From positions 5,696,001 to 5,760,000 of the forward strand of contig CBDETY010000003.1 of the NCBI GenBank assembly GCA_965243025.1: a DNA stretch of 64,000 nt, read 5' to 3'. Each line of letters starts with the position of its first letter. Within the stretch, counting starts at the first letter, position 1. Both the position numbers and the translations under genes were made by a program. Below, piece after piece: positions 5,132 to 21,924 of the stretch. The notes beneath the pieces are model-generated. The model made no database searches and had not been told where the DNA came from. It saw nothing but the letters and a program-made list of their open reading frames with translations. Source of the stretch: Candidatus Latescibacterota bacterium (GTDB taxonomy: Bacteria; Latescibacterota; UBA2968; UBA8231).

Positions 5132-5734
5132 CCAACTCCCTGCTTGAACGACAGTGTATCCGGGGTACAAGTCGCATGGCTATTCTCCTCCTTGACGTTT
5201 ATGCGATGGAACCACGAATACCGACTTGTTTGTATGGAAACTCGAGATGGATTTCCTTCAGGTCAGTCCTGCTGTGTTGGTGTGGCGTGCTCGATCAGCT
5301 TGATAGTCAGGTGCAGGAAAGGTTCCGAACATCAACAGCACCAGGATCACCGGCATCAAGCATAGGGTCGGTATCACCGCACATCAGCCATCACCCACTT
5401 CGTTACCGGCCAAGACAGCGCCAGGATGTTCCAAGCGAGGCCGCGTTGCTTTAGGTAGATGAATGAGGGTCGTTTGAAGATCCTTCGGAAGAACTCGTAG
5501 AACCCTTTTTGGATTTCTCTCGCCCCGTATCCGGTTCAAACCGGGACCTGAGGGACTGTTGATTGCACGCGCACCCGTACGGCGGAACCCGAATGCGCGT
5601 CGAGGATACAGGTTGGTCGACACCCGGGTAGACCCCTACGGAGTCCTTGCATTCCCGGAACTTCCGCTGCACCTTGGGGACCGACCTTAGCAAGCAAAGA
5701 CCATGGGTGTAGGCCTACACTCAGTAAGTAACCT

Positions 5735-5952
5735 GGGGCAACTACGAAATGGGCAAGCTATCAGGCCTTGACTGGCTGAAACTACATCAATCCCGACCAA
5801 GGCGGGGGCATTATCAACAACGTGAACTTTTGGGCGGAAGAGAACGGGTATCCGCGCAATATCATCGACCTCGAAAACGCATCGTGACGGTCAATGTCGA
5901 GACGATTCGCATGGTGTGGGAGCAGCCGGAGCTGCGGGTGGAAGAGGTATGA
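5735..5952 (+). pseudogene. Degraded C-terminus of a Type ISP restriction-modification enzyme
   Basis: Across frames: YEMGKLSGLDWL..GIINNVNFWAEENGYPRNIIDL..KRIVTVNVETIRMV..PEL, resembling the ISP specificity-domain tail; stop overlaps the herA ATG (ATGA). Confidence 0.6.
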
Positions 5953-8099
5953 CTGAGTCGCACGCTGAGCCCCCAGATCTCCTTGGCCGCCTCGAGCCAG
6001 ATATGGCGCGTGAGGAATTGTCGGACCGCGCAGTGGCCGCCCAAAATGAGATACGTGCTCTGCTGGATGCGGAATGTCAGGTTGGCGACCTCATCCGGAT
6101 GGACTTTGGCGAGGCACACATTCTGGTTCACGACGCCCTGCGGCTGCAAGTCGGCGGCGTGCCCCACGGCTGTTTGTTGCTGGCGGCACGAACCCAGGTG
6201 GCAGGTGACCCTCGTGGTGAGGCGGGGGAGGTGATGCCCTCGCTGCTGCTTCTGCGGGTTTTGGGAAGCAGTGCTTTGCCGAATGACATCGAGATGCAGC
6301 AGGCTCGATTCCAAGCTGGACAACGGGCTTCGGACAGCCTGCACAACTGGGATGAGAATCAGAACACAGACCAGTTTACGCTTCACCAGATGCGGTATGC
6401 AGGCCTACGCTGCTCCATCCTCGGAACGTTTCGCATGGTTCTCAGAGGAGACCCCGGGGAGTGGGGCCTCACATTCGGGAGCGACATCGACAACTTCTAC
6501 GCAGGGCAGGGCATGAAGGTATACAAGCCTGTTGGTGAGGCTTTGGAGCGCATCGTCAACTTCACGACGGCCAACGTATCTGATTCGGCCCGTGTTCGGA
6601 TCGGTGAGATCAAGTACGCTGCCGCCCTGGATGCAGGCCGGGCTGAGTCCGTGCCTGTCCAGATGACGACCCGCGATGTCGTCTCTCAGCGCACTGCCCT
6701 GTTCGGTATGACCCGAACCGGGAAGTCGAACACTGTCAAGACTCTCGCCCGCGCAGTTTTCGAGTTGCGGCTGGGGGACGAGACGCCGGAGCGGGTCGCG
6801 CAGCTGATTATCGACCCGAACGGGGAGTACGCGAACGACAACCCACAGGACGAAGGCTGTCTGCGCAACGTAAGGCATCTCCCAGGGGCCAGCTTGGATG
6901 ACGTGGTGACCTACGGTCTGACCCCCCATCCCAACGATCGGGAACGCCGGATCACCAAAATGAACTTTTTTGGCCCTGAGCTCAGTCAACAACCGCCGCG
7001 TAGCGCAGGTGAACTCGACGCGGTGTTGCAGTCCTTGTACATGGGTAAGCAGGTCATCGACGGGCGCCTTGATATGGAAGGGGCCGCGTACATCGCCGCA
7101 TTCCGTGGAACGGAAATGACGGCGCCCCCGGGGGTGACCGACCACGGAGAGTATGTACGCTACCGTCGCGCAGTGATCGTCTATCAGTCCGCCTTGGCCG
7201 CGGCCGGATTCGCCCCGCCTGGGGCCAGTGTTTCTGTGAGCGGGCTATTCAGCCGCGATGTTCGCCGGGCAATGGCTAGCGACTCCGAGTTATCCGGCTT
7301 CGCCGATCAAATCGGAGGGGACCTTAGGTGGGATGCCGCCTCGGAGTTCTGTCGGCGCCTGAGTAAATGGTTCGAGCGAGGAGGAGGAGGGCACCAATTT
7401 GATCGTGAATACCAGTCCTCTCATGACGGGCGTAACTGGAGCGACGATCGCCTCCTGGGCCTGTTGCGCATCTTCGAGAACACGCGAGGGGTTCAGGCGC
7501 TCCGTGAGTGCCGGGAGTGGCACGACCCACAACGGAATGCGGACTACACGGAGGAGATTGTCGCGGATCTCGCGGAGGGGAAGCTGGTCATTCTCGATCA
7601 GGCGCTCGGTGATCCTGTGATGAACGAGCAGTCCGCGGAGCGTATCATGCGCGCGATTTTCGCTCGACAGCAGGTGCGTTTCACGAATCCAGATAGGGGA
7701 CCGGACGGATCGTTCCTGGACCCCGATCCTGTCATCGTTTACATCGAGGAGGCGCACACAGTCCTGCCCCGCGGAAGTGAGGATGACACGCGCAACGTTT
7801 GGGCGCGAACGGCGAAAGAAGGCGCGAAATTCAACATCGGCCTCGTCTACTCGACGCAGGAGCCGTCTTCCGTCCAGCGCAACATCCTTCGGAACACAGA
7901 GAACTGGTTCCTCTCCCACCTCAATAACACGGCAGAGACGCGAGAACTCGACCAGTATAACGACTTCGCGGACTTTAGCGCTGGCATCCGGCGGGTGAAG
8001 GAGATTGGATTTCTCAAGGTGCGGACAATGTCCAGTCCCTACACCCTGCCCGTGCAGATAGATCGCTTCACTGCCCCGCCGGGGCTACCGGGGGACTGA
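5949..8099 (+). CDS. HerA-like ATPase (DUF87 / FtsK-HerA superfamily)
   Basis: Walker A GMTRTGKS, IIDPNGEY, Walker B VYIEEAH, AKEGAKFNIGLVYSTQ; GAGG before ATG 5949. Confidence 0.9.
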   Translation: MTESHAEPPDLLGRLEPDMAREELSDRAVAAQNEIRALLDAECQVGDLIRMDFGEAHILVHDALRLQVGGVPHGCLLLAARTQVAGDPRGEAGEVMPSLLLLRVLGSSALPNDIEMQQARFQAGQRASDSLHNWDENQNTDQFTLHQMRYAGLRCSILGTFRMVLRGDPGEWGLTFGSDIDNFYAGQGMKVYKPVGEALERIVNFTTANVSDSARVRIGEIKYAAALDAGRAESVPVQMTTRDVVSQRTALFGMTRTGKSNTVKTLARAVFELRLGDETPERVAQLIIDPNGEYANDNPQDEGCLRNVRHLPGASLDDVVTYGLTPHPNDRERRITKMNFFGPELSQQPPRSAGELDAVLQSLYMGKQVIDGRLDMEGAAYIAAFRGTEMTAPPGVTDHGEYVRYRRAVIVYQSALAAAGFAPPGASVSVSGLFSRDVRRAMASDSELSGFADQIGGDLRWDAASEFCRRLSKWFERGGGGHQFDREYQSSHDGRNWSDDRLLGLLRIFENTRGVQALRECREWHDPQRNADYTEEIVADLAEGKLVILDQALGDPVMNEQSAERIMRAIFARQQVRFTNPDRGPDGSFLDPDPVIVYIEEAHTVLPRGSEDDTRNVWARTAKEGAKFNIGLVYSTQEPSSVQRNILRNTENWFLSHLNNTAETRELDQYNDFADFSAGIRRVKEIGFLKVRTMSSPYTLPVQIDRFTAPPGLPGD

Positions 8100-9424
8100 T
8101 GCCCTACGGAAACGAGTACGCCAGCGGCGACTCCCTGTGGCGCCTTGTCGAGAGTGAAAGCGTCAAGGAGTTCGAGGGCATGATTCGCCGGGGCGATCCG
8201 GAGGATGCGCCCGAGCCACCGCCTCCGCTAACGCCTCCACGGGGCGTAGACCTAATTTCTCGCATCATCGTCATTGACGGTTCCACGGTCACCCACGCGG
8301 TTCGCAACGGGTACCCCGGCGCTGAAGCGGCGCTGCTCCAGCTGGCTGCTGTCATTATCGACCTTTCGGCGCTGAGGAGCATTCCTCGGGGATCGATCCC
8401 CCGCCCGAGCGCTATTCGCGATATGGAGGACTGCAGAACTCTTGATTCGGTGCTACCGGGCAGGAACGTTGTGCGGCGCAGCGTGCCGGGAGACACGCCG
8501 AGAACCTACTTCCGCTTCACCATTCACGAGATGCTGTCGGGCAGGAAGGTCGACCGTGATCACGAGACGCTGCTCGAGACGATGCGCGCCATTGCTCCCC
8601 CACGGAGCTTTCAGTGCCCCGCGGACGAATGCGAGGAGTCGCTGCCGGAACTCTCCGGCACTGGTCACTGCCCCTGCGAAAGGAAAGTTTTGGTATTCGA
8701 GACCGACAGCTTGCGGTTGCACGAGCGATTCGAAGACTTCGGTTCCTCGGCGCAGGCCTACACAGCCGCACGGCAGGTCGTGGAACACTTGGCAATGGTT
8801 AACATCATGCGCTTCTTTGCGCGGCGGGGCTGGTGGAATGCGTTCCGCACTACCGCCTTCGTGATGGACGGCCCGCTCGCCATTTTTGGGATGCCTGCGT
8901 GGCTCAAGAGTCACGTCCAGAACGAGGTCACCCGCCTGCACGAACTGGCGCTGGAACATGGTGGGCCTGGGGTCCTGCTCTTCGGTGTCGAGAAGGGCGG
9001 TATGTTCCTCGACCATCTCGAGGCGCTGGACCAGAGCGACCAGGAAGGACCTCGCTCCCTGCTCGATCCCGGAACAGCGCTAGCGCCTGACCGCGAGTAC
9101 GTCCACGGCCACATCGCTCTTCGGCCTCTCGACGCCAAACCGCACGGTGACGTAACTGACTATGGCCGCCGGGTGATGTACAAGAATGGGCTTGGGCAAC
9201 ACTCGGTGGTCATGACGCCAATCGTCAACGCCGCAGGAGAGAATCGCGATTGCGTGGAAGAGACCGCGTATCCACGGATAGGCGAGGTGCTCGACATAAT
9301 GGACGAATTCTCCACCTACCTTTACGAGGACGGATTCGCGCCGCTTGTGCGCGCGCACGCTCATGCTGCCATCCCGCTGAAGGCTGGCATCGGGCTTCTC
9401 ACAGAGCTCTTCACAGAGGAATGA
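8099..9424 (+). CDS. NurA-domain nuclease
   Basis: IVIDGS, FVMDGPL, GVEKGG and C-terminal AHAHAAI motifs; Cys-rich insert CPADEC..CPC; coupled to herA by TGATG. Confidence 0.8.
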   Translation: MPYGNEYASGDSLWRLVESESVKEFEGMIRRGDPEDAPEPPPPLTPPRGVDLISRIIVIDGSTVTHAVRNGYPGAEAALLQLAAVIIDLSALRSIPRGSIPRPSAIRDMEDCRTLDSVLPGRNVVRRSVPGDTPRTYFRFTIHEMLSGRKVDRDHETLLETMRAIAPPRSFQCPADECEESLPELSGTGHCPCERKVLVFETDSLRLHERFEDFGSSAQAYTAARQVVEHLAMVNIMRFFARRGWWNAFRTTAFVMDGPLAIFGMPAWLKSHVQNEVTRLHELALEHGGPGVLLFGVEKGGMFLDHLEALDQSDQEGPRSLLDPGTALAPDREYVHGHIALRPLDAKPHGDVTDYGRRVMYKNGLGQHSVVMTPIVNAAGENRDCVEETAYPRIGEVLDIMDEFSTYLYEDGFAPLVRAHAHAAIPLKAGIGLLTELFTEE

Positions 9425-10581
9425 GCCGTACCGCCTCGTGCGACATCGACATGCCGAAGTTGACTGGCTTCGGCACCGCCGAGGGCCGATGGGCAAGGCT
9501 TGGCCCATACTACGCGATGTTCCCAGTCGAGTTCGCACGGGACGTCATCGAAAACCTCAGCCAATGCGGCGACACGGTTCTGGATCCGTTCTGCGGCCGC
9601 GGAACCGCCCCGTACGTCGCCATGATTTCGGGCCGCCGCGCCGTCGGGTGCGACATCAATCCGGTTGCTTGGCTGTACGCCGCTGTCAAGACAGACCCGT
9701 GCCCTTTGTACCCCGACGTAAATCGGCGCATCCGCGAGGTTTCCGCCGCCGTACGGCCACGCGACCGGCGCCCGGCGGACGAGTTCCAGGCGCTCGCTTA
9801 TGGGCGGAAGGCGTTGGGTTTCATCAATGCCGCACGCCGAGAGTTGCGATGGCGCGAAAGCCGCCTCGACCGCACCGTCGCTGCCTTCTTACTCCACTAT
9901 CTGCATGCCAAGCTGGGGCAGGGCCTATCAAACCAGATGCGCCCTTCGCGAGCGATGTGTCCTGACTACTCTGTCCGCTGGTGGCGGAAGCGCGGCCTCA
10001 CAAGCCCACCCGACGTTGACGCGGCATCTTTTCTCAGCGACCGGGCCGCTTGGCGCTACGCCAAGGGGATTCCGGAACGTGCCGGGAACGCTAGGTTGGC
10101 GCTGGGCGACGCCGCCGCCGTTCTGCCAGATGCGGGGACAGGTGCCGCGCTCGTTTTTACGTCCCCGCCGTATGTCGGTGTCACCAACTACCGATCCGAT
10201 AACTGGCTGCGGCTATGGGCGTTGGGGGAGGGCCCGCCTCGAGCCGACTGGTCCACAAGCCAGAAGTTCACCAACCCCGAGAAGTACGAGACTATGCTGG
10301 ACGATGTGGTGCGGGCGGCGCGTGACCGAGCGCGTAGCGATGCGGTCTGGTACCTGCGTGTGGACGCTCGGAAGAGGACGCTCGCCGAAGTACGTCGCGT
10401 GACAGCAGCGGTGCTGCCCGGGCATCGTCGATACGAGCGACCATCGCCCTCGCCAAGTCGCACGCAGACAGCCATGTACGGAGACCACGGCGTCAAGCCG
10501 GGAGACGTGGACTTGGTGTACGTACCCCGGACAAGACGGAAACCAGCGTTCCTCAAGGGCTTCCGCCCACGTCGTCGTTAG
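9421..10581 (+). CDS. Amino (N4-C/N6-A) DNA methyltransferase, motif I before motif IV
   Basis: PYYAMFP, VLDPFCGRGT (SAM binding), FTSPPY (catalytic); ATGA overlap with the nurA stop. Confidence 0.85.
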   Translation: MSRTASCDIDMPKLTGFGTAEGRWARLGPYYAMFPVEFARDVIENLSQCGDTVLDPFCGRGTAPYVAMISGRRAVGCDINPVAWLYAAVKTDPCPLYPDVNRRIREVSAAVRPRDRRPADEFQALAYGRKALGFINAARRELRWRESRLDRTVAAFLLHYLHAKLGQGLSNQMRPSRAMCPDYSVRWWRKRGLTSPPDVDAASFLSDRAAWRYAKGIPERAGNARLALGDAAAVLPDAGTGAALVFTSPPYVGVTNYRSDNWLRLWALGEGPPRADWSTSQKFTNPEKYETMLDDVVRAARDRARSDAVWYLRVDARKRTLAEVRRVTAAVLPGHRRYERPSPSPSRTQTAMYGDHGVKPGDVDLVYVPRTRRKPAFLKGFRPRRR

Positions 10582-10781
10582 TTGACATGTCTTGGGGAGT
10601 AGCCTGTGTGGCAAGGTTCTGGCGGAACCCCCCTGAATCGGCAAGGTTGCATGATGTGCGTGGGTGAATCTGGCGTGAAGTCAGCACTGGTCTTGGGAAG
10701 AACAATGGCGTTTAAGGATGGTTCTCCCCGAATGAATCATGCTCGGCCTCTTTATGAGGGCGAGAGTGGAGGCAGGGAGTT

Positions 10782-11912
10782 GTGATAGCGAGTGGTGAAG
10801 TAAGAGTTGGCGATGCTACCGACCTCGGGTTCATTGACGAAGGATCGGTGGACTTGGTTATCACCTCGCCCCCTTATCCGATGATTGAAATGTGGGACGA
10901 GGCCTTCCAGCACCAAATACCCTGGGTTGAAAAAGCTCTGGCAGCCTGCGATGGCCCCAAGGCTTTCGAAATGATGCACAGATTACTCGACGAAGCTTGG
11001 GTGGAGGTATTCCGGGTTTTACGTCCGGGGGGGATTGCCTGTATCAACATTGGTGATGCCACCCGCACCATTGACGGGGATTTTCGGCTTTATTCCAACC
11101 ACTCGCGGATCCTATCTGGATTGCTTCGGGTTGGCTTCGTAAGCCTGCCCGATATTCTCTGGCACAAGCCTACAAACGCGCCTAACAAGTTTTTGGGGTC
11201 TGGTATGCTTCCCGCTGGTGCCTACGTCACCTACGAACATGAGTACATCCTGATCGTGCGAAAGGGCCCCCGCAGGGAATTCAAATCAGCCGCGGAGAAG
11301 AGACTGCGGCGAGAGAGCGCCTTCTTTTGGGAGGAGAGGAATCTTTGGTTCTCCGATGTCTGGTTCGATATCCGGGGAGCGGGCCAAGAGCTCGTCGACG
11401 AAGCTTCGCGCAAAAGAAGCGGTGCCTTTCCCTTTGAGTTGGCTTACCGGCTGGTGTGCATGTATTCAATCAAGGGAGACATGGTGCTGGATCCGTTCGG
11501 AGGTACGGGAATTGCAGCGGCTGCCGCCCTTGCCACGGGACGAAATGCCATCTCGGTGGAACTAGATGGGGCACTACTGCCTGTAGTTCGGTCATTCCTC
11601 CAAGCACTGCCGAAGTTTGCCAACGAGCACATCCAGCAGCGTCTCCGGCGCCACATGGAGTTCGCTCAAAAGAGAATCGCCGAGGGAGGTGCCTTCAAGC
11701 ACTGCAATCGGAACTACGGTTTTCCAGTGGTGACCTCCCAAGAGAGAGAACTCTTCCTGAATGATCTCCTGTCGGTTTGGGAGGAGAACGCTTCGGTAAC
11801 CGTTTTGTATGACAAGGAGCCACAGGCGGAGTTTCTAAAGCAGTGGACACCCGAAGAGGTGGAGGGATACTCTCTCCGTCCGAGAGAATTTCAGGCAGAG
11901 CTGCCGCTATAA
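10782..11912 (+). CDS. Beta-class N4-C/N6-A DNA methyltransferase of a Type II R-M system
   Basis: ITSPPY precedes VLDPFGGTG; convergent with the restriction endonuclease. Confidence 0.9.
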   Translation: MIASGEVRVGDATDLGFIDEGSVDLVITSPPYPMIEMWDEAFQHQIPWVEKALAACDGPKAFEMMHRLLDEAWVEVFRVLRPGGIACINIGDATRTIDGDFRLYSNHSRILSGLLRVGFVSLPDILWHKPTNAPNKFLGSGMLPAGAYVTYEHEYILIVRKGPRREFKSAAEKRLRRESAFFWEERNLWFSDVWFDIRGAGQELVDEASRKRSGAFPFELAYRLVCMYSIKGDMVLDPFGGTGIAAAAALATGRNAISVELDGALLPVVRSFLQALPKFANEHIQQRLRRHMEFAQKRIAEGGAFKHCNRNYGFPVVTSQERELFLNDLLSVWEENASVTVLYDKEPQAEFLKQWTPEEVEGYSLRPREFQAELPL

Positions 11913-11916
11913 TCTC

Positions 11917-12498
11917 TCAGAAGTCGAAACTGAACGATACGCCGCCTTTCTTCTTCTCGTAGATGATCATTCCGGAATCGATAGTCTCGGGAAGCATGTC
12001 CATGGTCGAATAGGTGGTGGGCTTTACCGAAACGGGTGTGTCTCCGATGTAACCGTCGATCCCTTGAGCTTCCTCTTCGGCGGATGCCAGCCGATAGGAG
12101 GTCCTTTTCATTTCGGCGACCCGTGCTATCAGTGCCTCTTGGAAGCAGAGGCCAGTGAAGGTTTTGGCGAGCACCAGATCCTCTACCCATTCACGGACCA
12201 TCTGCTTGTCGATCAGCAGAATCGCTTCCTGGAGTTTTTTAAGCATCGAATAGATTCGCTCAGTCGCCTCCTCGATTGCCGCTGGGTTTCTCTGAAGATA
12301 CCAAGCCTTCCATTCCTCGAAGTTCCTTCCAGAGAACTCGGTGAAGAGTTCGGTCATCTGGCCAACAACGCGCGGGCGTGTCCCTCCTGCATTCTGGTTT
12401 GCCAGATTCATGATCTGAGTGGTGTACTTTGGAAACTCGGGGACTCGGCCAACCGCGAAGTCGACGATTTCCGCAGTCTTGATTTTCCCTTTGGGCAT
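11917..12498 (-). CDS. MjaI-family Type II restriction endonuclease
   Basis: FPKYTTQIMNLANQNAGGTRPRVVGQM..., GIDGYIG..VSVKP PD-(D/E)xK-type core; GGAGG RBS. Confidence 0.85.
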   Translation of the reverse strand: MPKGKIKTAEIVDFAVGRVPEFPKYTTQIMNLANQNAGGTRPRVVGQMTELFTEFSGRNFEEWKAWYLQRNPAAIEEATERIYSMLKKLQEAILLIDKQMVREWVEDLVLAKTFTGLCFQEALIARVAEMKRTSYRLASAEEEAQGIDGYIGDTPVSVKPTTYSTMDMLPETIDSGMIIYEKKKGGVSFSFDF

Positions 12499-12904
12499 TT
12501 CATCCAGCCTCCTTGTTGTGCAGTCTCAGAATACGGACAAGTAGGTCCCCCTCCCCCAGTCGCTGACCGCCCGGTGGGTAGGTCGTAATCGACCGCGGTA
12601 AGATTCATGGTACGGCTTGGCAGGGTGACGCGTCGTTTGACGTAGTCTATGGTCAAGTTCTCCAGGGCATTGGGCCCAACGGGCTCGTCGAAATCCCCGT
12701 CTCCCTTTCCGCTTGGCGGCCCCGAGCAGGAAATTCATGGAGTTGGCCCCAGTTTGCTCCTGAATGCCCGCCAACCTTTGCTCAGGACGTGGGCTGTTCC
12801 AAGCCGCCCATAAAGGAGCACCACCTTCTTCCCCTTGCGGTTCTCTGGAGTTGACCCGATTTCGTGGACACTTCATTTCTTGAAAGAAAGGAGGGTGTCC
12901 AACC

Positions 12905-13219
12905 ATGCCGAAATCCCATTCCCCTTATCCGCCCGAATTCCGGCAACAGATGGTGGAACTGGTACGGGCGGGTCGTAGTCCGGAGTCGCTGGCCAAGGAA
13001 TTCGAGCCGTCCGGGCAGACGATCCGCAACTGGGTGATCCAGGCCGAACGCGATGAGGGGGTGCGCCGCGACGGCCCCTCCCGTCCGGAGCAGGAGGAAT
13101 TGCGGCGCCTTCGCCGTGAGAACAAGCAACTGCGTATCGAACGGGAGATCCTGGCAAAAGCCACGGCCTGGTTCGCTCGCGAGGCCGACTCGGAGTCCGG
13201 CCCGTCTACGAGTTCATGA
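12905..13219 (+). CDS. IS3 transposase OrfA (HTH + leucine zipper)
   Basis: YPPEFRQQMVELV..LAKEF..TIRNWV..ELRRLRRENKQLRIEREIL; AAAAG candidate -1 frameshift site near 13156. Confidence 0.92.
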   Translation: MPKSHSPYPPEFRQQMVELVRAGRSPESLAKEFEPSGQTIRNWVIQAERDEGVRRDGPSRPEQEELRRLRRENKQLRIEREILAKATAWFAREADSESGPSTSS

Positions 13220-14100
13220 GAGCGCACCAGGCCGACTTTCCGGTGCTGACGATGTGCCGCGTGCTGAAGGTCTCCCCCAGCGGCTACTACGCCTGGTTGA
13301 AACGCCCGCCTTCGGGTCGCGCCCGGGCCGATGCCGTGCTCAAGGCACGTGTCGAGCAGATCCACCAACACTCCCGGGGCACTTATGGAGCGCCGAGGAT
13401 CCGGGCCGAACTGGCCGAGGAGGGCCAAGCCATCGGTCGCAAGCGCATCGCCCGATTGATGCTTGAGCTCGGGGTGCGCGGGGTATGCGCCCGCCGCCGC
13501 CTCTCCACCACCCGTCGCGGCCGGCAGGGCCGGGTCGCCTCCGACCTGGTCAAGCGGGTGTTTTCGGTCTCCGGCCCGAATCGCCTGTGGGTTGCCGATC
13601 TCACCTACATTCCCACGAGGTCGGGGTTTTTGTATCTGAGCGTGGTCATGGACGCCTGGAGCCGCCGAGTGGTGGGCTGGGCCATGGCGAACCATATGCG
13701 TACGCAGTTGGTGCTGGACGCCCTTGACATGGCCCTGCACCGGCGCCGTCCCAAGAAAGTGATTCACCACTCCGACCACGGCAGTCAGTATACGGCCCTG
13801 GCCTTCGGGAAGCGCTGTCGCCAGGCCGGGGTACGTCCGTCGATGGGATCGGTCGGTGACTGCTTCGACAATGCTCTGTGCGAAAGCTTTTTCGCCACCT
13901 TGGAAAGGGAGCTGCTGGATCGTCATCGGTTTGCTACCCAGTCGCAAGCCCAGCGTACGGTTTTCGAATACCTGGAAGGCTGGTACAACCCCCATCGGCG
14001 GCACTCGGCCCTGGGACAACGATCTCCCATCAACTACGAGAGGTATCATTTATCAAGGGGTATAAATCCAAACGGAAAACTGTCCGTGAAATCGGGGTAA
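13216..14100 (+). CDS. IS3 transposase OrfB (DDE/rve)
   Basis: WVADLTY, HHSDHGSQY, DNALCESFFATLERE, YNPHRRHS. Confidence 0.95.
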   Translation: MRAHQADFPVLTMCRVLKVSPSGYYAWLKRPPSGRARADAVLKARVEQIHQHSRGTYGAPRIRAELAEEGQAIGRKRIARLMLELGVRGVCARRRLSTTRRGRQGRVASDLVKRVFSVSGPNRLWVADLTYIPTRSGFLYLSVVMDAWSRRVVGWAMANHMRTQLVLDALDMALHRRRPKKVIHHSDHGSQYTALAFGKRCRQAGVRPSMGSVGDCFDNALCESFFATLERELLDRHRFATQSQAQRTVFEYLEGWYNPHRRHSALGQRSPINYERYHLSRGINPNGKLSVKSG

Positions 14101-14140
14101 CCTCACTCGGGGCTGGTCGACCTATTAGAAACAGGGTGCT

Positions 14141-14569
14141 CTACTTACGCCACCTGCCTAGCGACAGACGTTCGCATACACGGTTTCGCCAGGAGAGCCA
14201 GAAAGCTTTAGGGTTCGGTTGAGACACAATAAGCCGCCTTCGCTCGACTTGGGCATACTCCGAATGACGGCTTGGATCGATTCTAGGCGCCCAAACGACG
14301 GTGTTATTCCAAATATAGTAGTGACTGCCGCAGCCCGAATTAGCCCACACGGACCCACCTGTGGCCCCTCCCAAGGAGACCGATTTGCCGTCAAAGTGAA
14401 CGTGCCAACGGCTGGGGTGGAGGGACAGGACGGTCAGATCGCCGCAGCCGCATGGACAGCGCAGGTTGACGGTTCGGTGCTTGTGGCTGATCCAGAGCTC
14501 GCCAGCTTTGATTGTGTCAAAGTCTGGCATTAGGTCTACGAAGATCGGTCGGACTTCCATGGGCGTCAT
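14141..14569 (-). CDS. DUF6527 family Cys/His-rich protein
   Basis: RCPCGCG...W...VSL...SVW..SGCGSHYYIWN..VVW pattern. Confidence 0.8.
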   Translation of the reverse strand: MTPMEVRPIFVDLMPDFDTIKAGELWISHKHRTVNLRCPCGCGDLTVLSLHPSRWHVHFDGKSVSLGGATGGSVWANSGCGSHYYIWNNTVVWAPRIDPSRHSEYAQVERRRLIVSQPNPKAFWLSWRNRVCERLSLGRWRK

Positions 14570-14578
14570 GCCTTCGAG

Positions 14579-15766
14579 TCAGGCCGCCCTGGCAATCCGG
14601 GGTGTCTCGAGACGGAATTTGTGAAGGAACGAAGCGGATTCGGAAACGTACTGTTCCGTGCGGCGCCGCCACTCCATCATGGCAAGCGACGCCGCCAAAG
14701 CGTTCACTTCCGGGAGCTGGACGTTGCGATAGCCTGGCGCATTGCCCTCGACCCTGGCGTTCGGTATGGCATCTTGCCATGCCAGAGAGCCGGCGGCATT
14801 GGCAATTGTCGTGACCGCGCCGCTAACCGCATCGTTTTCCAAGGTAATACTCACGCCCGAATCTATGAACGGAACCTCCTCCTCCGAGAGCACGGCGTAC
14901 ACGACGTCCTGACGCGGCGAGTCACAGTCAATCCGTTGGTCGATACACACGAAAGCATAGTCGACAGAATGTTCGGACAGGAATTCGGCGAATCTTGTTG
15001 AATTGTCGACTCGGATGGCATGCGCGTGGATGCCTTCCCGGAGGGAAGCGTACTTGGAGTGGTAGTAGTCCACTTTGCGCGGGCGCGCCTTACGCAGCGA
15101 TTCAATCTCCTCGCAAGTCGGTGCTCCCGGCGCACGCATGAGGTTGTGCCAGTCCACCTCGTCGGAATCGAGAAGATGGATCTCTGCCACAGGCGTCTTC
15201 ACCATGAGGTCAAGTAAGTAGGCCCCCGTCCCGCCCAGACCGATAATCGCAACGCGCTGATCGCGGATACGGTCTTGCACTGGGCCTATCGCCGCTCGGG
15301 CCTCGTAAGTGTTGGGAATCTTAAACGGACCCCGGTCTACGAGGGAAGTGGGTTCGTGGAAACCGGCCGCCGAAACGGCCCCGACGACTTGCTTTGCATA
15401 GCGGTAGATCACGTCGTTTGGTGAAGCATCGTCCTCTGGACTAGCTTGGCTACCTCTCCGAATAGAAATGTTGGACCAGGTTTCGCCGTCACCGCCTATG
15501 TGGTGCCCGATAGGTGTTCCATTCGCGTTGTACACGCAGCCATCCAGTGCTTCGTCAGGGGTGACGGAGACGGCATGGACTGCCCCACCTATGCGTTTAT
15601 TCGGCTTCCCGCTCTCCGGGTCGAAGGATTTTTCGATCTTGCAGGTACCAACGATCTCGTCTTTGAGCAGACAGGGAACCCTCTCGGCTGCCACAACGTC
15701 GTTGCCCACCGTCACCGTAAAACCAATCTGCCCCGCGAACTGGAAGAGGCGATCCTTACGAGACAT
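14579..15766 (-). CDS. ThiF/E1-like adenylyltransferase with N-terminal extra domain (DUF6791-like)
   Basis: VAIIGLGGTG, LLDSDEVDWHNLMRAPG, RKVDYY, FVCID, IDSG and PEVNALAASLAM motifs. Confidence 0.85.
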   Translation of the reverse strand: MSRKDRLFQFAGQIGFTVTVGNDVVAAERVPCLLKDEIVGTCKIEKSFDPESGKPNKRIGGAVHAVSVTPDEALDGCVYNANGTPIGHHIGGDGETWSNISIRRGSQASPEDDASPNDVIYRYAKQVVGAVSAAGFHEPTSLVDRGPFKIPNTYEARAAIGPVQDRIRDQRVAIIGLGGTGAYLLDLMVKTPVAEIHLLDSDEVDWHNLMRAPGAPTCEEIESLRKARPRKVDYYHSKYASLREGIHAHAIRVDNSTRFAEFLSEHSVDYAFVCIDQRIDCDSPRQDVVYAVLSEEEVPFIDSGVSITLENDAVSGAVTTIANAAGSLAWQDAIPNARVEGNAPGYRNVQLPEVNALAASLAMMEWRRRTEQYVSESASFLHKFRLETPRIARAA

Positions 15767-16004
15767 GTTCGGGGTCTACCGAGAAGCTCGTGCCGTCCTT
15801 GACTTCAACGTCCTTGCCAGGCAGGAGTACGCCGTCGTTGCCTTTCAAGTCGTTTTCGTAGTCGATTCCGGGCGTGCCGATAATGTGCTTTCCCTCCGCC
15901 TCGTGAAGCATGTTCCAGATCTTTACGATCTGTTCATACGTCACGACAGGGCCAGGGACCTTGTACTCTCGACCGCTCACGATAATCTGTGTGTCACCAT
16001 TCAT
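15756..16004 (-). CDS. Ubiquitin-like (Multi_ubiq-type beta-grasp) protein
   Basis: IIVSGREYKV...VTYEQIV...IDY...GVLLPGKDVEVKDGTSFSV; GGAGG RBS; overlaps the E1 start. Confidence 0.7.
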   Translation of the reverse strand: MNGDTQIIVSGREYKVPGPVVTYEQIVKIWNMLHEAEGKHIIGTPGIDYENDLKGNDGVLLPGKDVEVKDGTSFSVDPEHVS

Positions 16005-16136
16005 AGGTTGCTCCTCCGATTTTGGAATGCATAGGTTACGGTCAGGATCAATCCGGGGCCTGGGGGACCATTGAGGTCACACAAGCTCCATCTGTTCCTG
16101 CCCATCGAGCGCGATCAGCCTTGCCGTGTGTCGTCA

Positions 16137-16159
16137 CAACGGCATATGATATGTCGTTG
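16137..16159. promoter_or_regulatory. Palindromic operator between the Ubl operon and the Crp-like gene
   Basis: CAACGGCATA-TGA-TATGTCGTTG, 9/10 arm match. Confidence 0.55.
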
Positions 16160-16245
16160 AAAACCCAATGTCAAGGGCGTATTAGATCTTTCCTATTTGC
16201 CTTCTTGTGTGCTATTCTTGTGGGGGAGATCGGTCGTGAACCGTA

Positions 16246-17010
16246 ATGGCTGTTGAAATCGCCGGTTTTGCCCAAGCGCTAGCCCGTTGTCAGGCCTTTG
16301 AGTCCGTCGATGCTGGCGAGCTTGAGAACGTGCTCTCAAGTGGCCAGGAACCACTGGAGATGCTGTTCGTTGAGCCTTCGGCTGATGAGCCACTCATTCG
16401 CTCGGGAGGGCCCTTTAGGCACCTGTTCTTCGTTTTACACGGCATGATCGTGCCCTGGCAGTATCCTCACTCGGAACTCTCATCCCCTTTCCTCATAGGG
16501 GATCACGAATTCATGATGAATGCGGAGCGCTGGGTGGCTTCCTACTCCGCTGCAACGGAAGCGACGGTCGTGGGCATCCCCGTCTCCACGATGCGACACG
16601 CCGTTGAAAAGATGCCCGAGATTCGGTCCAATTTGTACCTATTGTTGTTGAGGCGAATGGCGCGCTACTACTGGATTTCACTCGCTACCAACGGGAGTCC
16701 ACCACCGAGGGTAGCGGCCGCTCTGATCTCCCGTCTGGCCCTCAATGGACTGGATCACGGCCGCGAGCGCGAGATCGTCGTGCGGCAGCGAGACATCGTC
16801 CGCCTCACAGTCATGTCTCGCTCGGCCGTCGCGGGGGGGATTGCAACACTCGTTTCCGCTGACCTCATCCGCACCGGGGACGACAACAGTGAAAGATTCT
16901 CAGGGCTCGTACATGTCCCGGACGTTGACCGGTTAAAGGACTACGCTCTCAGCGAAGTTCGGGGAAAAGAGGTCCTCCCACTTCTCCAGTCGTACAAAGA
17001 CTACCAATGA
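16246..17010 (+). CDS. Crp/Fnr-family transcriptional regulator (cNMP-binding fold + HTH)
   Basis: LIRSGGPFRHLFFVLHG, LIGDHEF, ASYSAATEATV; C-terminal RVAAAL...RQRDIVRLTVMSRSAV..IATL HTH. Confidence 0.7.
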   Translation: MAVEIAGFAQALARCQAFESVDAGELENVLSSGQEPLEMLFVEPSADEPLIRSGGPFRHLFFVLHGMIVPWQYPHSELSSPFLIGDHEFMMNAERWVASYSAATEATVVGIPVSTMRHAVEKMPEIRSNLYLLLLRRMARYYWISLATNGSPPPRVAAALISRLALNGLDHGREREIVVRQRDIVRLTVMSRSAVAGGIATLVSADLIRTGDDNSERFSGLVHVPDVDRLKDYALSEVRGKEVLPLLQSYKDYQ

Positions 17011-17104
17011 ACCCCTACACCCGGTTTGCAGGTAGCGTTGGTGGGACCACCCCTTGGAAGCGACCAACAAGCCGGTAACCGGGCTCCCTCGAGAAAACCC
17101 AACC

Positions 17105-20829: not shown

Positions 20830-21924
20830 TTAGGCTTCCTCTGCGTATTCCTCAAGCACTGCGTCCGACAGATAGGAAAGGTGCTGCTCGTCAGATACTT
20901 CTCTCACGCTATCGTAAGAGATAAAGGAACAGATCTCCGACAGCGGAGCACGTTCGAGTAATGAAAAGACCGGCCGCTGAATTTCTTGCAGAACCTTCTC
21001 CTTTCGACCGTACGGGGCAACAATGTGAAGGCGGATGTCCATGTTTGGCTGAAGTGCCAGCAAGTCCGCCATTCGGAGTATCCCGGAATAAATCGCTGTT
21101 GAGTGTTCAACTTCGAAGGCCCTGACAATTGATCTACGCCGCAACCAAAGTACATCAATTTGTTCAATTGTCTTCAAGGTGGTTTCGTCGTAATTCAGTG
21201 GCAGTGCATCCAACAACACTCCCTCGTCTGGCGCCCACTCCTGGATAATATTGGAGCGATCGCTACGTGGAAGCCAGACTGTGAATCCCATGGCCTCCCC
21301 AATCCGAGCTAGGAGTGCCTGTATCTGATAGGATTCACGAATAGTTTGTTCATCTCGCGCGTCTTCCTCTGACTCGTCCTCCTGAGGTACGGAGACAGAA
21401 ACCACCTTGTCTTCCCGCCGGATTCTCTGTCCAACCAGCTTCCGGTAGTGTTCCTCGTCCAATTCGTATGTGTGTCCACCTATTTTCTGGCGTTCCAGCA
21501 ACTCTTCTAAGAACCGGCCGTCTTCCTCGGATAGAGGATTAAGGCTGTTTCGCATTTTGCCGGTCCAATGCGAGCTGTTCTTTTCGTAGCTCTGAGTGAA
21601 TGAAAGAGCCTCCCAAACGTGGTCCTCGTGAATCGGGACAGCCTTCTCCTTGGGCAGCCAAACCTGCGGTTTTACACGAAATCGGATCACGAAGGGGTCA
21701 TCCTCAGGATAGAATAGAGGCGTGTTACCCTCGAAGTATTCGCTTGTGACCTCCAGGATACCCACCCAGCGGGAAAGCTTGGTTACGTAGCAAACAAGCT
21801 TGTCACCACGCCCGATCTGGCTCGCGGCGTTCTTCTGGCGTGGTCTGAACCCGGAGATGCTCTGATCTGATTGGGTAAAAGCCTCGTATGTCTCAGGCGA
21901 AAAGAGATCGGTGTAATAAGCCAT
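20830..21924 (-). CDS. EVE-domain + PD-(D/E)xK-like nuclease (candidate modification-dependent restriction enzyme)
   Basis: N-terminal IGRGDKLVCYV..WVGILEVTS EVE pattern; C-terminal IDVLW...AFEVEHSTAIYSGILRMADL; lower GC than flanks. Confidence 0.75.
   Translation of the reverse strand: MAYYTDLFSPETYEAFTQSDQSISGFRPRQKNAASQIGRGDKLVCYVTKLSRWVGILEVTSEYFEGNTPLFYPEDDPFVIRFRVKPQVWLPKEKAVPIHEDHVWEALSFTQSYEKNSSHWTGKMRNSLNPLSEEDGRFLEELLERQKIGGHTYELDEEHYRKLVGQRIRREDKVVSVSVPQEDESEEDARDEQTIRESYQIQALLARIGEAMGFTVWLPRSDRSNIIQEWAPDEGVLLDALPLNYDETTLKTIEQIDVLWLRRRSIVRAFEVEHSTAIYSGILRMADLLALQPNMDIRLHIVAPYGRKEKVLQEIQRPVFSLLERAPLSEICSFISYDSVREVSDEQHLSYLSDAVLEEYAEEA

What the first reader, a model, noticed from the sequence alone, without database searches (positions are those of the whole stretch)
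14141..17010. Ubl / ThiF-E1 / DUF6527 operon under a divergent Crp-type regulator: best candidate for an uncharacterised system
Seen: three tightly packed minus-strand genes (82-aa beta-grasp protein, E1-like enzyme with a ~150-aa N-terminal domain, Cys/His-rich DUF6527) inside a defence island, facing a Crp/Fnr gene across a 23-bp palindrome. The Ubl ends ...VDPEHVS, not Gly-Gly. There is no JAB peptidase and no separate E2. The E1 keeps the adenylation motifs but shows no CxxC pairs, while DUF6527 carries CPCGC and CxxH. Known: bacterial Ubl-E1-E2-JAB systems (Bil, CBASS Cap2) conjugate proteins in antiphage defence, and Ubl-ThiF-DUF6527 neighbourhoods have been noted computationally. Inference: an inducible conjugation or adenylation system that activates a non-Gly C-terminus, with DUF6527 supplying the metal site or thioester Cys in trans.
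Basis: partly seen in the sequence, partly recalled or inferred. Interest (0 to 1): 0.85.

Follow-up and report, generated by a model that had tools for sequence, protein, structure and literature searches.

The report
Divergent Type II Bub ubiquitin-like operon
The three genes are a bacterial ubiquitin-like protein-tagging operon of an already described kind (Type II Bub), here in a divergent subfamily, and the neighbouring Crp-type regulator gene is not a regular partner of such operons.

Summary
Three tightly packed minus-strand genes encode an 82-aa Multi_ubiq Ubl, a 395-aa ThiF-type E1 with an extra N-terminal domain, and a 142-aa DUF6527 protein.

The system is not uncharacterised. Its architecture and key residues match the "6E.2/DUF6527" operons that Ye et al. 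(bioRxiv 10.1101/2024.11.21.623953) named Type II Bub: BubA (Ubl), BubBD (E2-E1 fusion) and BubE (DUF6527 serine peptidase).
- The "missing" E2 is the N-terminal domain. Its best structural match among 48,161 chains is Citrobacter BubB (Z 6.0).
- The E1 domain's best matches are Citrobacter BubCD.
- The non-Gly C-terminus is a family trait. The terminal Ser is present in 19 of 19 close and 55 of 55 distant operons, and in the crystallised E. coli Type II BubA.
- A complex model places the Ubl tail on the BubE Ser/His site (score 0.85, best control 0.16).

The Crp-like gene is absent from 0 of 24 homologous loci. In its only other genome it lies without a Bub operon.

Verdict: a new member, in a distinct subclade, of a known kind. 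The biological role is still unknown.

The parts
15756..16004 (-). bubA-like gene: 82-aa single beta-grasp ubiquitin-like protein, tail DPEHVS, C-terminal Ser82
   Evidence: ORF. PF14452 Multi_ubiq at E 3.6e-8. The Ubl profile A3 hits PDB 9cd2_A (E. coli ZDHYS365 multi-ubiquitin protein) at E 1.5e-23, aligned end to end up to its terminal Ser. G58, F74 and S82 are invariant in 28 of 28 aligned Ubls.
15362..15766 (-). E2 (UBC-like, BubB-type) domain of the bubBD-like gene, residues 1-135, with His64, Ser101 and Tyr123
   Evidence: The domain model has pLDDT 92.8. The best of 48,161 PDB representatives is Citrobacter BubB 9eav_D (Z 6.0, rmsd 4.4 A, 108 residues aligned), followed by RWD/UBC/UEV folds. 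Foldseek hits are weak but E2-rich (Atg3, Rad6, BubB; E 0.06-0.1). H64 is kept in 175 of 176, S101 in 170 of 176 (Cys in 6) and Y123 in 173 of 176.
14579..15361 (-). E1 adenylation domain of the bubBD-like gene, residues 136-395: GLGGTG 176-181, Asp200/Asp202, Arg211, flexible crossover loop 337-346 ending in Tyr346
   Evidence: PF00899 ThiF. Profile A2 has Citrobacter BubCD as its best PDB match (E 3.3e-10). Foldseek ranks 1-6 are BubCD chains (E 3.9e-12 to 6.7e-11). G176, G178, G181, D200, D202, R211 and K231 are kept in 176 of 176. A Tyr lies within 4 columns of Y346 in 176 of 176. The window's loop has no Cys. Loop 337-346 has pLDDT below 50.
14141..14569 (-). bubE-like gene: DUF6527 protein with Cys38/40/42/80 (zinc site), Ser73 and His83 (proposed peptidase dyad), and a basic/aromatic C-terminal extension
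   Evidence: PF20137 at E 3.1e-13. C38, C40, C42, C80 and H83 are invariant in 27 of 27. The spacing C42-38-C80, Ser = Cys-7 and His = Cys+3 equals the Citrobacter numbering C61/C99/S92/H102 given. The complex model with the Ubl scores 0.85 against a best control of 0.16, and its interface includes BubE 66-78 and 83 with Ubl 75-82.
16146..16174 (-). sigma-70-like promoter pointing at the Ubl gene (TTGACA, 17 nt, TATCAT; 11 of 12 matches)
   Evidence: Consensus scan: 3 sites found against 1.3 expected in the region. This is a pattern match only. The stretch lies in DNA that is shared with the G012 copy of the Crp-like gene rather than with other Bub cassettes.
16137..16159 (.). 23-bp imperfect palindrome that overlaps the -10 hexamers of both divergent promoter-like sites
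   Evidence: 10 of 11 pairs match, and 3 of 500 shuffles are as good. Only the right half is kept in the one homologous spacer, in G012. It is absent from the upstream regions of 14 other cassettes.
16246..17010 (+). Crp/Fnr-like regulator gene: a neighbour, not part of the conserved cassette
   Evidence: Weak cNMP_binding and wHTH matches. Atlas look-alikes are Crp/Fnr regulators. It is absent from 24 of 24 homologous loci. It is present in 2 of 168 genomes of the phylum.

Best explanation

Inferred mechanism, taken from the characterised E. coli and Citrobacter systems:
1. The E1 domain of the 395-aa BubBD protein binds the 82-aa Ubl and adenylates its C-terminal carboxylate. Here that residue is Ser82, not Gly. 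The reaction uses ATP and needs Arg211.
2. Tyr346 on the flexible crossover loop attacks the adenylate and forms a Ubl~Tyr oxyester.
3. The Ubl passes to Ser101 of the fused N-terminal E2 domain, helped by His64 and a basic residue at 103.
4. From there it goes onto a lysine of an unknown target.
5. The DUF6527 protein (BubE) holds a structural Cys4 zinc site. It uses a Ser73-His83 dyad to cut Ubl-target bonds, which resets or restrains the pathway.

The cassette is mobile, patchily distributed and sits in a defence island. A role in antiphage defence or stress response is likely but unproven.

Shown here: gene content, folds, conserved residues, a predicted Ubl-BubE interface, and purifying selection.

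Inferred: every chemical step, the target and the biological role.
For: Architecture:
- Ubl, then E2-E1, then DUF6527, with no JAB. This is the definition of Type II Bub.

E1 domain:
- The best sequence-profile match and the best fold matches in the PDB are Citrobacter BubCD.
- Arg211 and the nucleotide-binding residues are invariant in 176 of 176 relatives.
- A crossover-loop Tyr is present in 176 of 176, and the window's loop has no Cys.

E2 domain:
- Its best structural match is Citrobacter BubB, followed by UBC/RWD folds.
- Ser101 is Ser in 170 and Cys in 6 of 176. His64 is kept in 175 of 176.

Ubl:
- It matches Multi_ubiq.
- The family profile matches the crystallised E. coli Type II BubA, 9cd2_A, at E 1.5e-23. 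That chain also ends in Ser.
- The terminal Ser is present in 19 of 19 close operons and 55 of 55 distant ones.

BubE:
- The Cys4 and His residues are invariant in 27 of 27. The Ser/His spacing is as in Citrobacter BubE.
- The complex model scores 0.85 against a best control of 0.16. That mark was reached by 58 of 80 solved complexes and 2 of 110 mismatched pairs. The runs agree in at least 64% of contacts, and partner pLDDT is at least 88. The Ubl tail 75-82 lies on BubE 66-78 and His83.

Operon conservation and context:
- The three genes travel together in 18 of 24 genome loci.
- Of the 80 distant loci, 59 have a DUF6527-like ORF downstream and 38 have both flanking genes.
- dN/dS is 0.11-0.20 for all three genes against four relatives.
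- A divergent HTH + Peptidase_M78 pair (CapH/CapP-like) lies upstream in 7 of 24 loci and in G024. Ye et al. report 31%.
Against: - No enzymology exists for this clade.
- The E2E1 protein is only 24-29% identical to most of the 35 aligned relatives. It scores below the curated cut-offs of the NCBIfam PRK06153 models.
- PADLOC has no hit for the Ubl or for DUF6527.
- The E2 fold match is middling: Z 6.0, with Foldseek E no better than 0.06.
- At the position where 142 of 176 relatives have Lys, two residues after the Ser, the window has Arg.
- MAFFT does not align Ser73 of BubE with the 'PSIGN' Ser of the main family. Its equivalence to the catalytic Ser rests on spacing alone.
- Ye et al. state that no Bub operon has yet protected E. 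coli from phage, so the defence role is unproven.
- The complex model used my own alignments with a zinc ion riding along. The tool says this makes its calibration only rough.
Confidence: 0.85

Rival explanations
1. One reading: a new E2-less system in which the E1 activates the Ubl and DUF6527 supplies the metal site or a thioester Cys in trans.
For: - DUF6527 has four invariant Cys, and the E1 lacks CxxC.
- The complex model puts the Ubl C-terminus on DUF6527. That fits a transfer role as well as a peptidase role, and Ye et al. raise the same alternative.
Against: - An E2-like domain with a conserved Ser/Cys position is fused to the E1.
- In Citrobacter the four Cys are described as a structural zinc site. 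There, S92A and H102A abolish cleavage, and BubE removes conjugates in cells.
- In the E. coli Type II system, conjugate formation in vitro needed only BubA and BubBD.
Confidence: 0.05
2. In this lineage the Crp-like protein has been recruited as the operon's regulator. It would bind the 23-bp palindrome that overlaps both -10 boxes and make the operon inducible by a small-molecule signal. This is compatible with the best explanation.
For: - The two genes are divergent and 241 bp apart.
- The palindrome is rare by chance: 3 of 500 shuffles.
- It overlaps the -10 hexamers of an 11/12 promoter-like site facing the Ubl and of a 9/12 site facing the Crp-like gene.
- This copy lacks the CapH/CapP-like pair seen at other copies.
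- Contigs of related strains keep the Bub-spacer-Crp arrangement: X10 record 8 and X9 record 29. These are close kin, not independent cases.
- In G012 the gene again faces accessory genes of unknown function, DUF2806 and DUF6602.
Against: - The Crp-like gene is absent from 24 of 24 homologous loci.
- The other 14 of the 15 genomes of the phylum that have an E2E1 relative lack it.
- G012 has the gene but no Bub E2E1.
- The left palindrome arm is not conserved in G012.
- The DNA shared with G012 starts about 80 bp upstream of the Ubl gene. So the promoter-like site belongs to the Crp module, not to the cassette.
- The family assignment of the protein is weak.
Confidence: 0.25
3. It is not a protein-conjugation system. 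Instead it is an E1-like C-terminal modification or sulfur-carrier pathway of the ThiF/MoeB or MccB/PaaA kind, acting on the small protein itself.
For: - MccB, PaaA, ThiF and MoeB are among the significant fold and sequence matches of the E1 domain.
- The substrate's C-terminal residue is unusual.
Against: - BubCD outranks them.
- The Ubl lacks the Gly-Gly of sulfur carriers.
- A fused E2-like domain and a Ubl-tail-binding DUF6527 are conserved alongside it.
- The E. coli homologue forms covalent BubA conjugates that depend on the E1 Tyr and the E2 Ser.
Confidence: 0.04
4. This copy is a decaying, inactive remnant.
For: - Arg stands in place of the usual Lys next to the E2 Ser.
- An IS3 element lies 40 bp from the end of bubE.
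- Several relatives are visibly broken. L007 lacks most of the Ubl. L011, L012, L016 and L020 have split genes. L021 is truncated.
Against: - All three ORFs are intact and full length against relatives.
- 14 of 176 relatives also have Arg at that position.
- dN/dS is 0.11-0.20.
- The IS lies outside the genes, and a contig of a related strain lacks it.
Confidence: 0.08

Closest known systems
Type II Bub operon (BubA, BubBD, BubE) of E. coli ZDHYS365; Ye, Gong, Chambers, Corbett, bioRxiv 10.1101/2024.11.21.623953; formerly '6E.2' / 'DUF6527 operon'
   Same: - The gene order is the same: Ubl, E2-E1 fusion, DUF6527, with no JAB.
- The E1 has the Arg finger and a crossover-loop Tyr and no Cys.
- The E2 has Ser and His.
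- BubE has the Cys4 site and a Ser/His pair.
- The Ubl ends in Ser after a 6-residue tail.
   Different: - The Ubl has one beta-grasp domain of 82 aa, against three domains and 222 aa in 9cd2_A.
- The tail is DPEHVS rather than T-x-T-D-K/R-S.
- The E2E1 protein is only about 24-29% identical to the main family. It sits in a separate clade (SH-like support 99, FastTree).
- Arg replaces Lys two residues after the E2 Ser.
- The BubE Cys spacing is 38, as in the Type I Citrobacter protein, not the 35 counted by hand in the one main-family row L026.
- There is no CapW or CapH/CapP gene beside this copy.
Type I Bub operon of Citrobacter sp. RHBSTW-00271 (BubAB, BubCD, BubE; PDB 9ea4, 9ea5, 9ea8, 9eae, 9eav)
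   Same: - It supplies the closest solved structures for both the E1 domain (BubCD) and the E2 domain (BubB).
- Its chemistry has no Cys.
- The DUF6527 motif spacing is the same.
   Different: - Type I fuses the Ubl to the E2 and a JAB peptidase to the E1.
- Its Ubl ends in Gly after JAB cleavage.
- Here there is no JAB, the E2 is fused to the E1, and the Ubl is made with its final Ser.
Operon class '6e' of Iyer, Burroughs and Aravind 2006 (PMC1779556)
   Same: - It was described as a polyUbl or solo Ubl with an E1.
[quoted passage not shown]
- There is a metal-binding protein with the signature C-x3-C-x35-38-H-x2-C (passages read).
   Different: That work predicted the E2-like parts to be inactive and did not assign domain X. 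The present locus is the domain-X (E2-E1) form with a solo Ubl.
Bil (BilABCD) and Type II CBASS Cap2/Cap3
   Same: - They use an E1 and an E2 for conjugation in defence islands.
- Cap2 is also an E2-E1 fusion.
- PADLOC 'E1-E2' models match the nucleotide-binding loop.
   Different: - Those systems use catalytic Cys and a JAB peptidase.
- CBASS conjugates a CD-NTase rather than a Ubl.
- All but one of the 24 PADLOC matches cover only about residues 155-216; the other reaches residue 276.

Membership tests
Type II Bub (6E.2 / DUF6527 operon) | Gene complement: Ubl (BubA) + E2-E1 fusion (BubBD) + DUF6527 (BubE), typically without a JAB peptidase | tested here: met
   The three adjacent co-directional genes carry Multi_ubiq, ThiF with an extra N-terminal domain, and DUF6527. 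No JAB was found among the neighbours scanned.
Type II Bub (6E.2 / DUF6527 operon) | BubA is a beta-grasp Ubl related to the characterised E. coli BubA | tested here: met
   PF14452 at E 3.6e-8. A profile that includes the window Ubl hits 9cd2_A at E 1.5e-23 over its last domain. The window sequence alone did not hit the PDB. Partner pLDDT in the complex model was 89-92.
Type II Bub (6E.2 / DUF6527 operon) | E1 adenylation domain with the Arg needed for adenylation (R219 in E. coli BubBD) | tested here: met
   Arg211 is kept in 176 of 176, and the GxGGxG and Asp residues are invariant. The best PDB relatives are BubCD. The equivalence to R219 is by position only, because I did not have the E. 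coli BubBD sequence.
Type II Bub (6E.2 / DUF6527 operon) | Invariant Tyr and no catalytic Cys in the E1 crossover loop (Y342 in E. coli) | tested here: met
   Tyr346 ends the low-confidence loop 337-346. A Tyr lies within 4 alignment columns in 176 of 176. The window has no Cys between residues 281 and 395. 16 of 176 relatives have a Cys somewhere in that region.
Type II Bub (6E.2 / DUF6527 operon) | N-terminal domain with a UBC (E2) fold | tested here: met
   The domain model has pLDDT 92.8. The top VIA-align hit is Citrobacter BubB 9eav_D (Z 6.0, rmsd 4.4 A, 108 aligned), then RWD, Ubc9, UBE2E1 and UEV. Foldseek hits are E2-rich but weak, with E no better than 0.058. The strength is moderate.
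Type II Bub (6E.2 / DUF6527 operon) | Invariant Ser in place of the E2 catalytic Cys (S106 in E. coli) | tested here: met
   Ser101 is Ser in 170 and Cys in 6 of 176. Its structural superposition on BubB S333 was not examined.
Type II Bub (6E.2 / DUF6527 operon) | Invariant Lys and His accompanying the E2 Ser | tested here: inconclusive
   His64 is kept in 175 of 176. The most conserved Lys column (Ser+2) has K in 142 and R in 14, and the window has Arg103. The figure that names the Lys (Fig. 3f of Ye et al.) is not held, so I cannot say which Lys is meant.
Type II Bub (6E.2 / DUF6527 operon) | BubE: DUF6527 with a Cys4 zinc site and a Ser-His dyad | tested here: met
   PF20137 at E 3.1e-13. 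C38, C40, C42, C80 and H83 are invariant in 27 of 27. Ser73 sits 7 residues before the fourth Cys and His83 sits 3 after it, as for S92/C99/H102. The alignment of Ser73 to the main family's Ser is ambiguous.
Type II Bub (6E.2 / DUF6527 operon) | ATP-dependent Ubl conjugation through oxyester intermediates | not testable with these tools
   This needs biochemistry.
Bil (BilABCD) | Separate E2, a JAB peptidase, and an E1 with IAD-AAD-CYS domains and a catalytic Cys | tested here: not met
   There is no JAB. There is a single adenylation domain. There is no Cys in the crossover region.
Type II CBASS Cap2/Cap3 | E2-E1 fusion with catalytic Cys residues next to a CD-NTase and a JAB (Cap3) | tested here: not met
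   All but one of the PADLOC E1-E2 matches cover only about residues 155-216. No CD-NTase or JAB was found among the neighbours scanned.
ThiF/MoeB sulfur-carrier pairs | A small beta-grasp partner ending in Gly-Gly, and an E1 with CxxC zinc motifs | tested here: not met
   The Ubl ends in Val-Ser. The E1 has no CxxC. The ThiF and MoeB NCBIfam scores are far below their cut-offs.
Crp/Fnr regulators (the neighbouring gene) | N-terminal cNMP-binding domain plus a C-terminal HTH_Crp_2 domain | tested here: inconclusive
   cNMP_binding scores 17.9 bits against a cut-off of 27.5. MarR_2 scores 16.1 against 27. There is no NCBIfam hit. The PDB gives only a cNMP-binding domain at E 0.049. Atlas look-alikes are Crp/Fnr at 0.96.

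The most novel reading that the evidence does not exclude
The window's clade may be a third, functionally orthogonal lineage of Bub systems.
- It is a promoter-less cassette of about 1.9 kb. Homology among copies starts about 30 nt before the Ubl start codon.
- It has spread among uncultured bacteria that record titles assign to about seven phyla.
- Its minimal 82-aa Ubl carries an invariant acidic, His-containing tail, DPEHVS.
- Its BubE has Type I-like spacing.

The C-terminal Ser was universal in every E2-E1-fused Bub operon examined here. It may be a mechanistic requirement of the all-oxyester relay or of BubE recognition, rather than a neutral substitute for Gly.
Probability: 0.3. Interest if true: 0.55.

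Novelty: new member of a known kind. Interest (0 to 1): 0.33.

Why it matters
Bub pathways are the only ubiquitin-like cascades reported to run without catalytic cysteines, and their targets and cellular role are still unknown.

This locus adds four things:
- A compact, strongly conserved subfamily. The Ubl is 55-90% identical in 19 loci from MAGs that record titles assign to several phyla. All three genes are under purifying selection. It could serve as a minimal model system.
- A Ubl C-terminus that is Ser in every E2-E1-fused operon examined.
- Candidate residues to mutate: Ser101, Tyr346 and Arg211 in BubBD, Ser82 in the Ubl, and Ser73 and His83 in BubE.
- A correction to the record for this window: it is not a new system, the E2 is not missing, and the Crp-type gene should not be used to define the system.

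Tried and rejected
- The window Ubl alone and the DUF6527 protein alone gave no meaningful PDB sequence hit. The S27 zinc-ribbon matches at E 0.25-0.83 were not pursued.
- PADLOC gave nothing for the Ubl or DUF6527.
- NCBIfam gave nothing for the Ubl, DUF6527 or the Crp-like protein.
- The listing of cluster members returned no names or accessions for seven close E2E1 homologues.
- The search for homologous proteins with the Ubl returned only close relatives: 311 hits, and the 120 listed are 79-91% identical. The distant Ubls therefore had to be read from metagenome loci.
- Upstream DNA of 14 other cassettes shares nothing with the window beyond the ribosome-binding region. No common operator was found.
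- Expression: no RNA holder was listed for the stretch. Nothing can be said about transcription.
- Laid contigs. One X9 contig suggests a form that skips 16067-17104, which would be the Crp-like gene. It has only 26 letters on its shorter side, so I treat it as a weak hint. Parts without cover were not interpreted.
I make no habitat claim from them. My impression that isolate prefixes such as SB06xx, RHO and COS come from sponge-microbiome studies is recall, not a result.
- I first considered DUF6527 as the E2. I dropped this after reading and finding the N-terminal E2-like domain.
Table S1 of Ye et al., which lists 544 operons, and their Figs S5-S6 could show two things: whether this clade is already catalogued, and whether the terminal Ser is noted there. 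In the main text, 'C-terminal serine' and 'terminal serine' occur 0 times.
- The look-up of encoding contigs was not called, because it is stated to be closed.

Full report
WHAT IS THERE

The window holds three co-directional minus-strand ORFs and one divergent ORF.
- The minus-strand ORFs are 15756-16004 (82 aa), 14579-15766 (395 aa) and 14141-14569 (142 aa).
- The first two overlap by 11 nt. The last two are 9 nt apart.
- A divergent ORF lies at 16246-17010 (254 aa), 241 bp from the first.

Pfam assigns the three genes as follows.
- The 82-aa protein is Multi_ubiq (E 3.6e-8).
- Residues 163-327 of the 395-aa protein are ThiF (E 6.8e-14).
- The 142-aa protein is DUF6527 (E 3.1e-13).
- The 254-aa protein gets only sub-threshold cNMP_binding and MarR_2 matches.

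- The Ubl ends VDPEHVS.
- The E1 has no CxxC; its Cys are at 32, 42, 77, 218, 274 and 281.
- DUF6527 has CPCGC and C-x-x-H.
- No JAB is nearby.

The neighbourhood is a defence island.
- It holds a PDC-M45C-like gene and a HerA-like ATPase.
- It holds two Type II methylases and an MjaI-type endonuclease.
- An IS3 element abuts the operon.
- Beyond gltX there is an EVE/REase-like gene.

WHAT IT IS

A full-text search for 'DUF6527' found two preprints from one laboratory.

What I read of each paper:
- Ye et al.: the abstract and outline, sections 5, 10, 11 and 12 in full, and passages.
- Gong et al.: the abstract and passages.
- Iyer et al. 2006: passages.

Ye et al. rename the '6E/DUF6527' operons Bub.
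- For the E. coli ZDHYS365 system they report ATP-dependent BubA conjugates. These need the adenylation Arg (R219), a crossover-loop Tyr (Y342) and an E2 Ser (S106).
- For Citrobacter BubE they report a Cys4 zinc site (C57/C59/C61/C99) and a Ser92-His102 dyad with weak peptidase activity that removes conjugates in cells.
- Iyer et al. had already listed this class ('6e'). It includes forms whose E1 carries 'domain X' instead of JAB, and a metal-binding protein with the signature C-x3-C-x35-38-H-x2-C.

TESTS OF MEMBERSHIP

E1 domain
- A search of 1.84 billion representatives gave 782 relatives.
- An alignment of 35 full-length relatives (A2) was used as a profile. Its best PDB match is Citrobacter BubCD (E 3.3e-10).
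- The AlphaFold model has pLDDT 86.1 and a disordered loop at 337-346.
- The six best Foldseek matches of that model are BubCD chains. UBA5, MccB, PaaA, Cap2, MoeB and ThiF follow.
- In 176 full-length relatives, the GxGGxG motif, Asp200, Asp202, Arg211 and Lys231 are invariant. A Tyr lies within four columns of Tyr346 in all 176.

E2 domain
- Residues 1-140 were folded alone and gave pLDDT 92.8. The topology is helix, four strands, a loop with two short strands, then a long helix.
- An exhaustive structural comparison with 48,161 chains put Citrobacter BubB first (Z 6.0, rmsd 4.4 A, 108 residues). RWD, Ubc9, UBE2E1, UEV and CdnG-E2 folds came below it.
- Foldseek alone was weak, with E no better than 0.058. 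Its top rows were Atg3, Rad6, BubB and Atg10.
- Z 6 is middling by the tool's own note. I rest on two things: the identity of the top hit, and the enrichment for one superfamily.
- His64 is kept in 175 of 176, Ser101 is S in 170 and C in 6, and Tyr123 is kept in 173 of 176.
- Two residues after the Ser, 142 relatives have Lys and 14 have Arg. The window has Arg.

Ubl
- In 19 of 19 close operons the Ubl ends KDGTSFSVDPEHVS.
- Among 80 metagenome loci of the wider family (29-39% identity to the E2E1 protein), 55 had an upstream same-strand ORF passing my filter. All 55 end in Ser after F-x-V plus a six-residue tail, typically T-x-T-D/N-K/R-S.
- The other 25 loci mostly begin inside or just before the E1 gene.
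- A profile of 28 such Ubls, with G58, F74 and S82 invariant, hits exactly one PDB sequence. It is 9cd2_A, 'ZDHYS365 multi-ubiquitin domain protein', at E 1.5e-23. The alignment runs to the chain's last residue, a Ser.
- Type I Ubls, by contrast, end in Gly after JAB cleavage.

BubE
- In 27 aligned DUF6527 proteins, C38, C40, C42, C80, S82, H83 and Y84 are invariant.
- The spacing matches the Citrobacter numbers exactly: third to fourth Cys is 38, Ser73 is Cys-7, and His83 is Cys+3.
- MAFFT places Ser73 in an insertion relative to the main family's 'PSIGN' Ser. The assignment of the catalytic Ser is therefore by spacing and not secure.
- A complex prediction of BubE, the Ubl and zinc scored 0.85 (runs 0.88, 0.82, 0.85) against a best control of 0.16.
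- That mark was reached by 58 of 80 solved complexes and 2 of 110 mismatched pairs. The runs agree in at least 64% of contacts, and partner pLDDT is at least 88.
- The calibration is only rough here, because I used my own alignments and a riding ligand.
- The confident interface includes Ubl residues 75-82 and BubE residues 66-78 and 83. No BubE complex has been solved, so this pass is less likely to come from memory. It supports binding but does not show it.

CONSERVATION AND MOBILITY
- The E2E1 protein has over a thousand close relatives. One search found 1,292 hits, and the 119 listed hits other than its own record are 71-83% identical.
- In one-genome-per-species contigs, 24 loci were found. 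Their record titles name MAGs of Acidobacteriota, Chloroflexota, Gemmatimonadota, Alpha- and Gammaproteobacteria, Actinomycetota, Latescibacterota and Saccharibacteria.
- Titles are the submitters' labels. At least one 'Latescibacterota' record falls in the window's own GTDB family: L012 and L115 have matching hit statistics.
- All three genes are present in 18 of 24 loci. Several copies are broken: L007, L011, L012, L016, L020 and L021.
- Within the window's phylum, 15 of 168 genomes have an E2E1 relative. Both other genomes of the same genus lack it.
- One genome, G024, has three copies. Two of them lie in a 3.9-kb repeat that is 99.7% identical. The repeat also carries a Peptidase_M78 gene and an integrase remnant.
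- Homology among cassettes begins about 30 nt before the Ubl start.
- dN/dS is 0.11-0.20 with dS 0.6-1.7 against four relatives. The proteins are therefore under strong constraint, and the spread is not very recent.
- A FastTree of 176 proteins puts the window clade (14 rows), and that clade plus eight intermediates (22 rows), each on one side of a branch with SH-like support 99. FastTree support is weak evidence when rows are long.

THE CRP-LIKE GENE AND THE PALINDROME
- The 23-bp palindrome is at 16137-16159. It has 10 of 11 pairs, and 3 of 500 shuffles were as good.
- It overlaps the -10 hexamers of two promoter-like sites. One, with 11 of 12 matches, faces the Ubl gene. The other, with 9 of 12, faces the Crp-like gene.
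- That arrangement would suit a shared operator.

Several results count against a conserved link.
- The Crp-like protein is found in 0 of 24 homologous loci.
- It is found in only 2 of 168 genomes of the phylum.
- The other genome, G012, has no Bub E2E1. There the gene has an internal deletion of about 160 bp. It faces DUF2806 and DUF6602 genes.
- The DNA shared with G012 runs from window 16087 to 17004. So the promoter-like site and the palindrome belong to the Crp module. In G012 the left arm of the palindrome is not kept.
- In 7 of 24 loci, and in G024, the cassette is instead preceded by an HTH + Peptidase_M78 pair. This is the CapH/CapP-type regulator that Ye et al. report at 31% of Bub operons.
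- Contigs from other studies keep the Bub-spacer-Crp arrangement in close kin. One shows the same junction without the IS, joining 12842 to 14106.

I give about 25% to a lineage-specific recruitment of this regulator.

VERDICT

It misses three things.
- The family is described.
- The E2 is the N-terminal domain.
- DUF6527 is the family's peptidase.

The locus is a new member, in a distinct subclade, of Type II Bub. What remains open is open for the whole family: the target, the biological role (no phage protection has been shown), and why the fused-E2 forms always end their Ubl in Ser.

Noticed in passing
window 12850-14101: An IS3-family element lies 40 bp beyond the bubE stop. It has orfA at 12905-13219 (HTH_Tnp_1), orfB at 13216-14100 (rve), and 24-nt terminal inverted repeats at 12850-12873 and 14078-14101. 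A contig of a related strain (run X5) joins 12842 directly to 14106, so the insertion is recent or polymorphic.
   Followed up: partly
window 9250-12498: A Type II restriction-modification module: two N6_N4 DNA methylases (9250-10581 and 10782-11912, both +) and an MjaI-type endonuclease (11917-12498, -).
   Followed up: partly
window 5916-9424: A 727-aa HerA-like ATPase (DUF87; PADLOC HerA models at E 1e-16) is followed, with overlapping stop and start, by a 441-aa protein with no Pfam, NCBIfam or PADLOC match. This may be an undescribed HerA-partnered defence pair.
   Followed up: no
window 2480-2917 and 20830-21924: A 145-aa protein matches the PADLOC candidate system component PDC-M45C end to end (E 7e-73). 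A 364-aa protein beyond gltX combines a weak EVE domain with a Type II REase-like C-terminus.
   Followed up: no
L123 7375-11242, L124 7310-11177, L125 8640-11210 (genome G024): One genome of the same class carries three copies of the window-type cassette. Two lie inside a 3,868-bp repeat that is 99.7% identical. The repeat also holds a Peptidase_M78 (CapP-like) gene upstream and an rve integrase remnant downstream. The third copy has lost about 0.5 kb around the Ubl start.
   Followed up: partly
L110 8082-8838 (genome G012): This is the only other copy of the Crp-like gene found in 168 genomes. It is 91% identical over residues 1-131 and has an internal deletion of about 160 bp with one in-frame TGA. 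It lies divergent from DUF2806 and DUF6602 genes, with no Bub operon in the genome.
   Followed up: partly
L007, L011, L012, L016, L020, L021: Many homologous cassettes are decayed. The defects are a missing Ubl, frameshifted E2E1 or DUF6527 genes, and truncation. This suggests frequent loss after transfer.
   Followed up: no
L003, L004, L005, L007, L015, L016, L020 (about 4500-5780, minus strand): A divergent HTH_3 + Peptidase_M78 gene pair (CapH/CapP-like) lies immediately upstream of the Ubl gene in 7 of 24 loci. Three of these spacers share a TTGACA ... GGTACTGTCAA motif.
   Followed up: partly
window 16067-17104: One low-depth contig of run X9 appears to join 16067 to 17104, skipping the Crp-like gene. 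Its shorter side has only 26 letters, so this may be an artefact.
   Followed up: no
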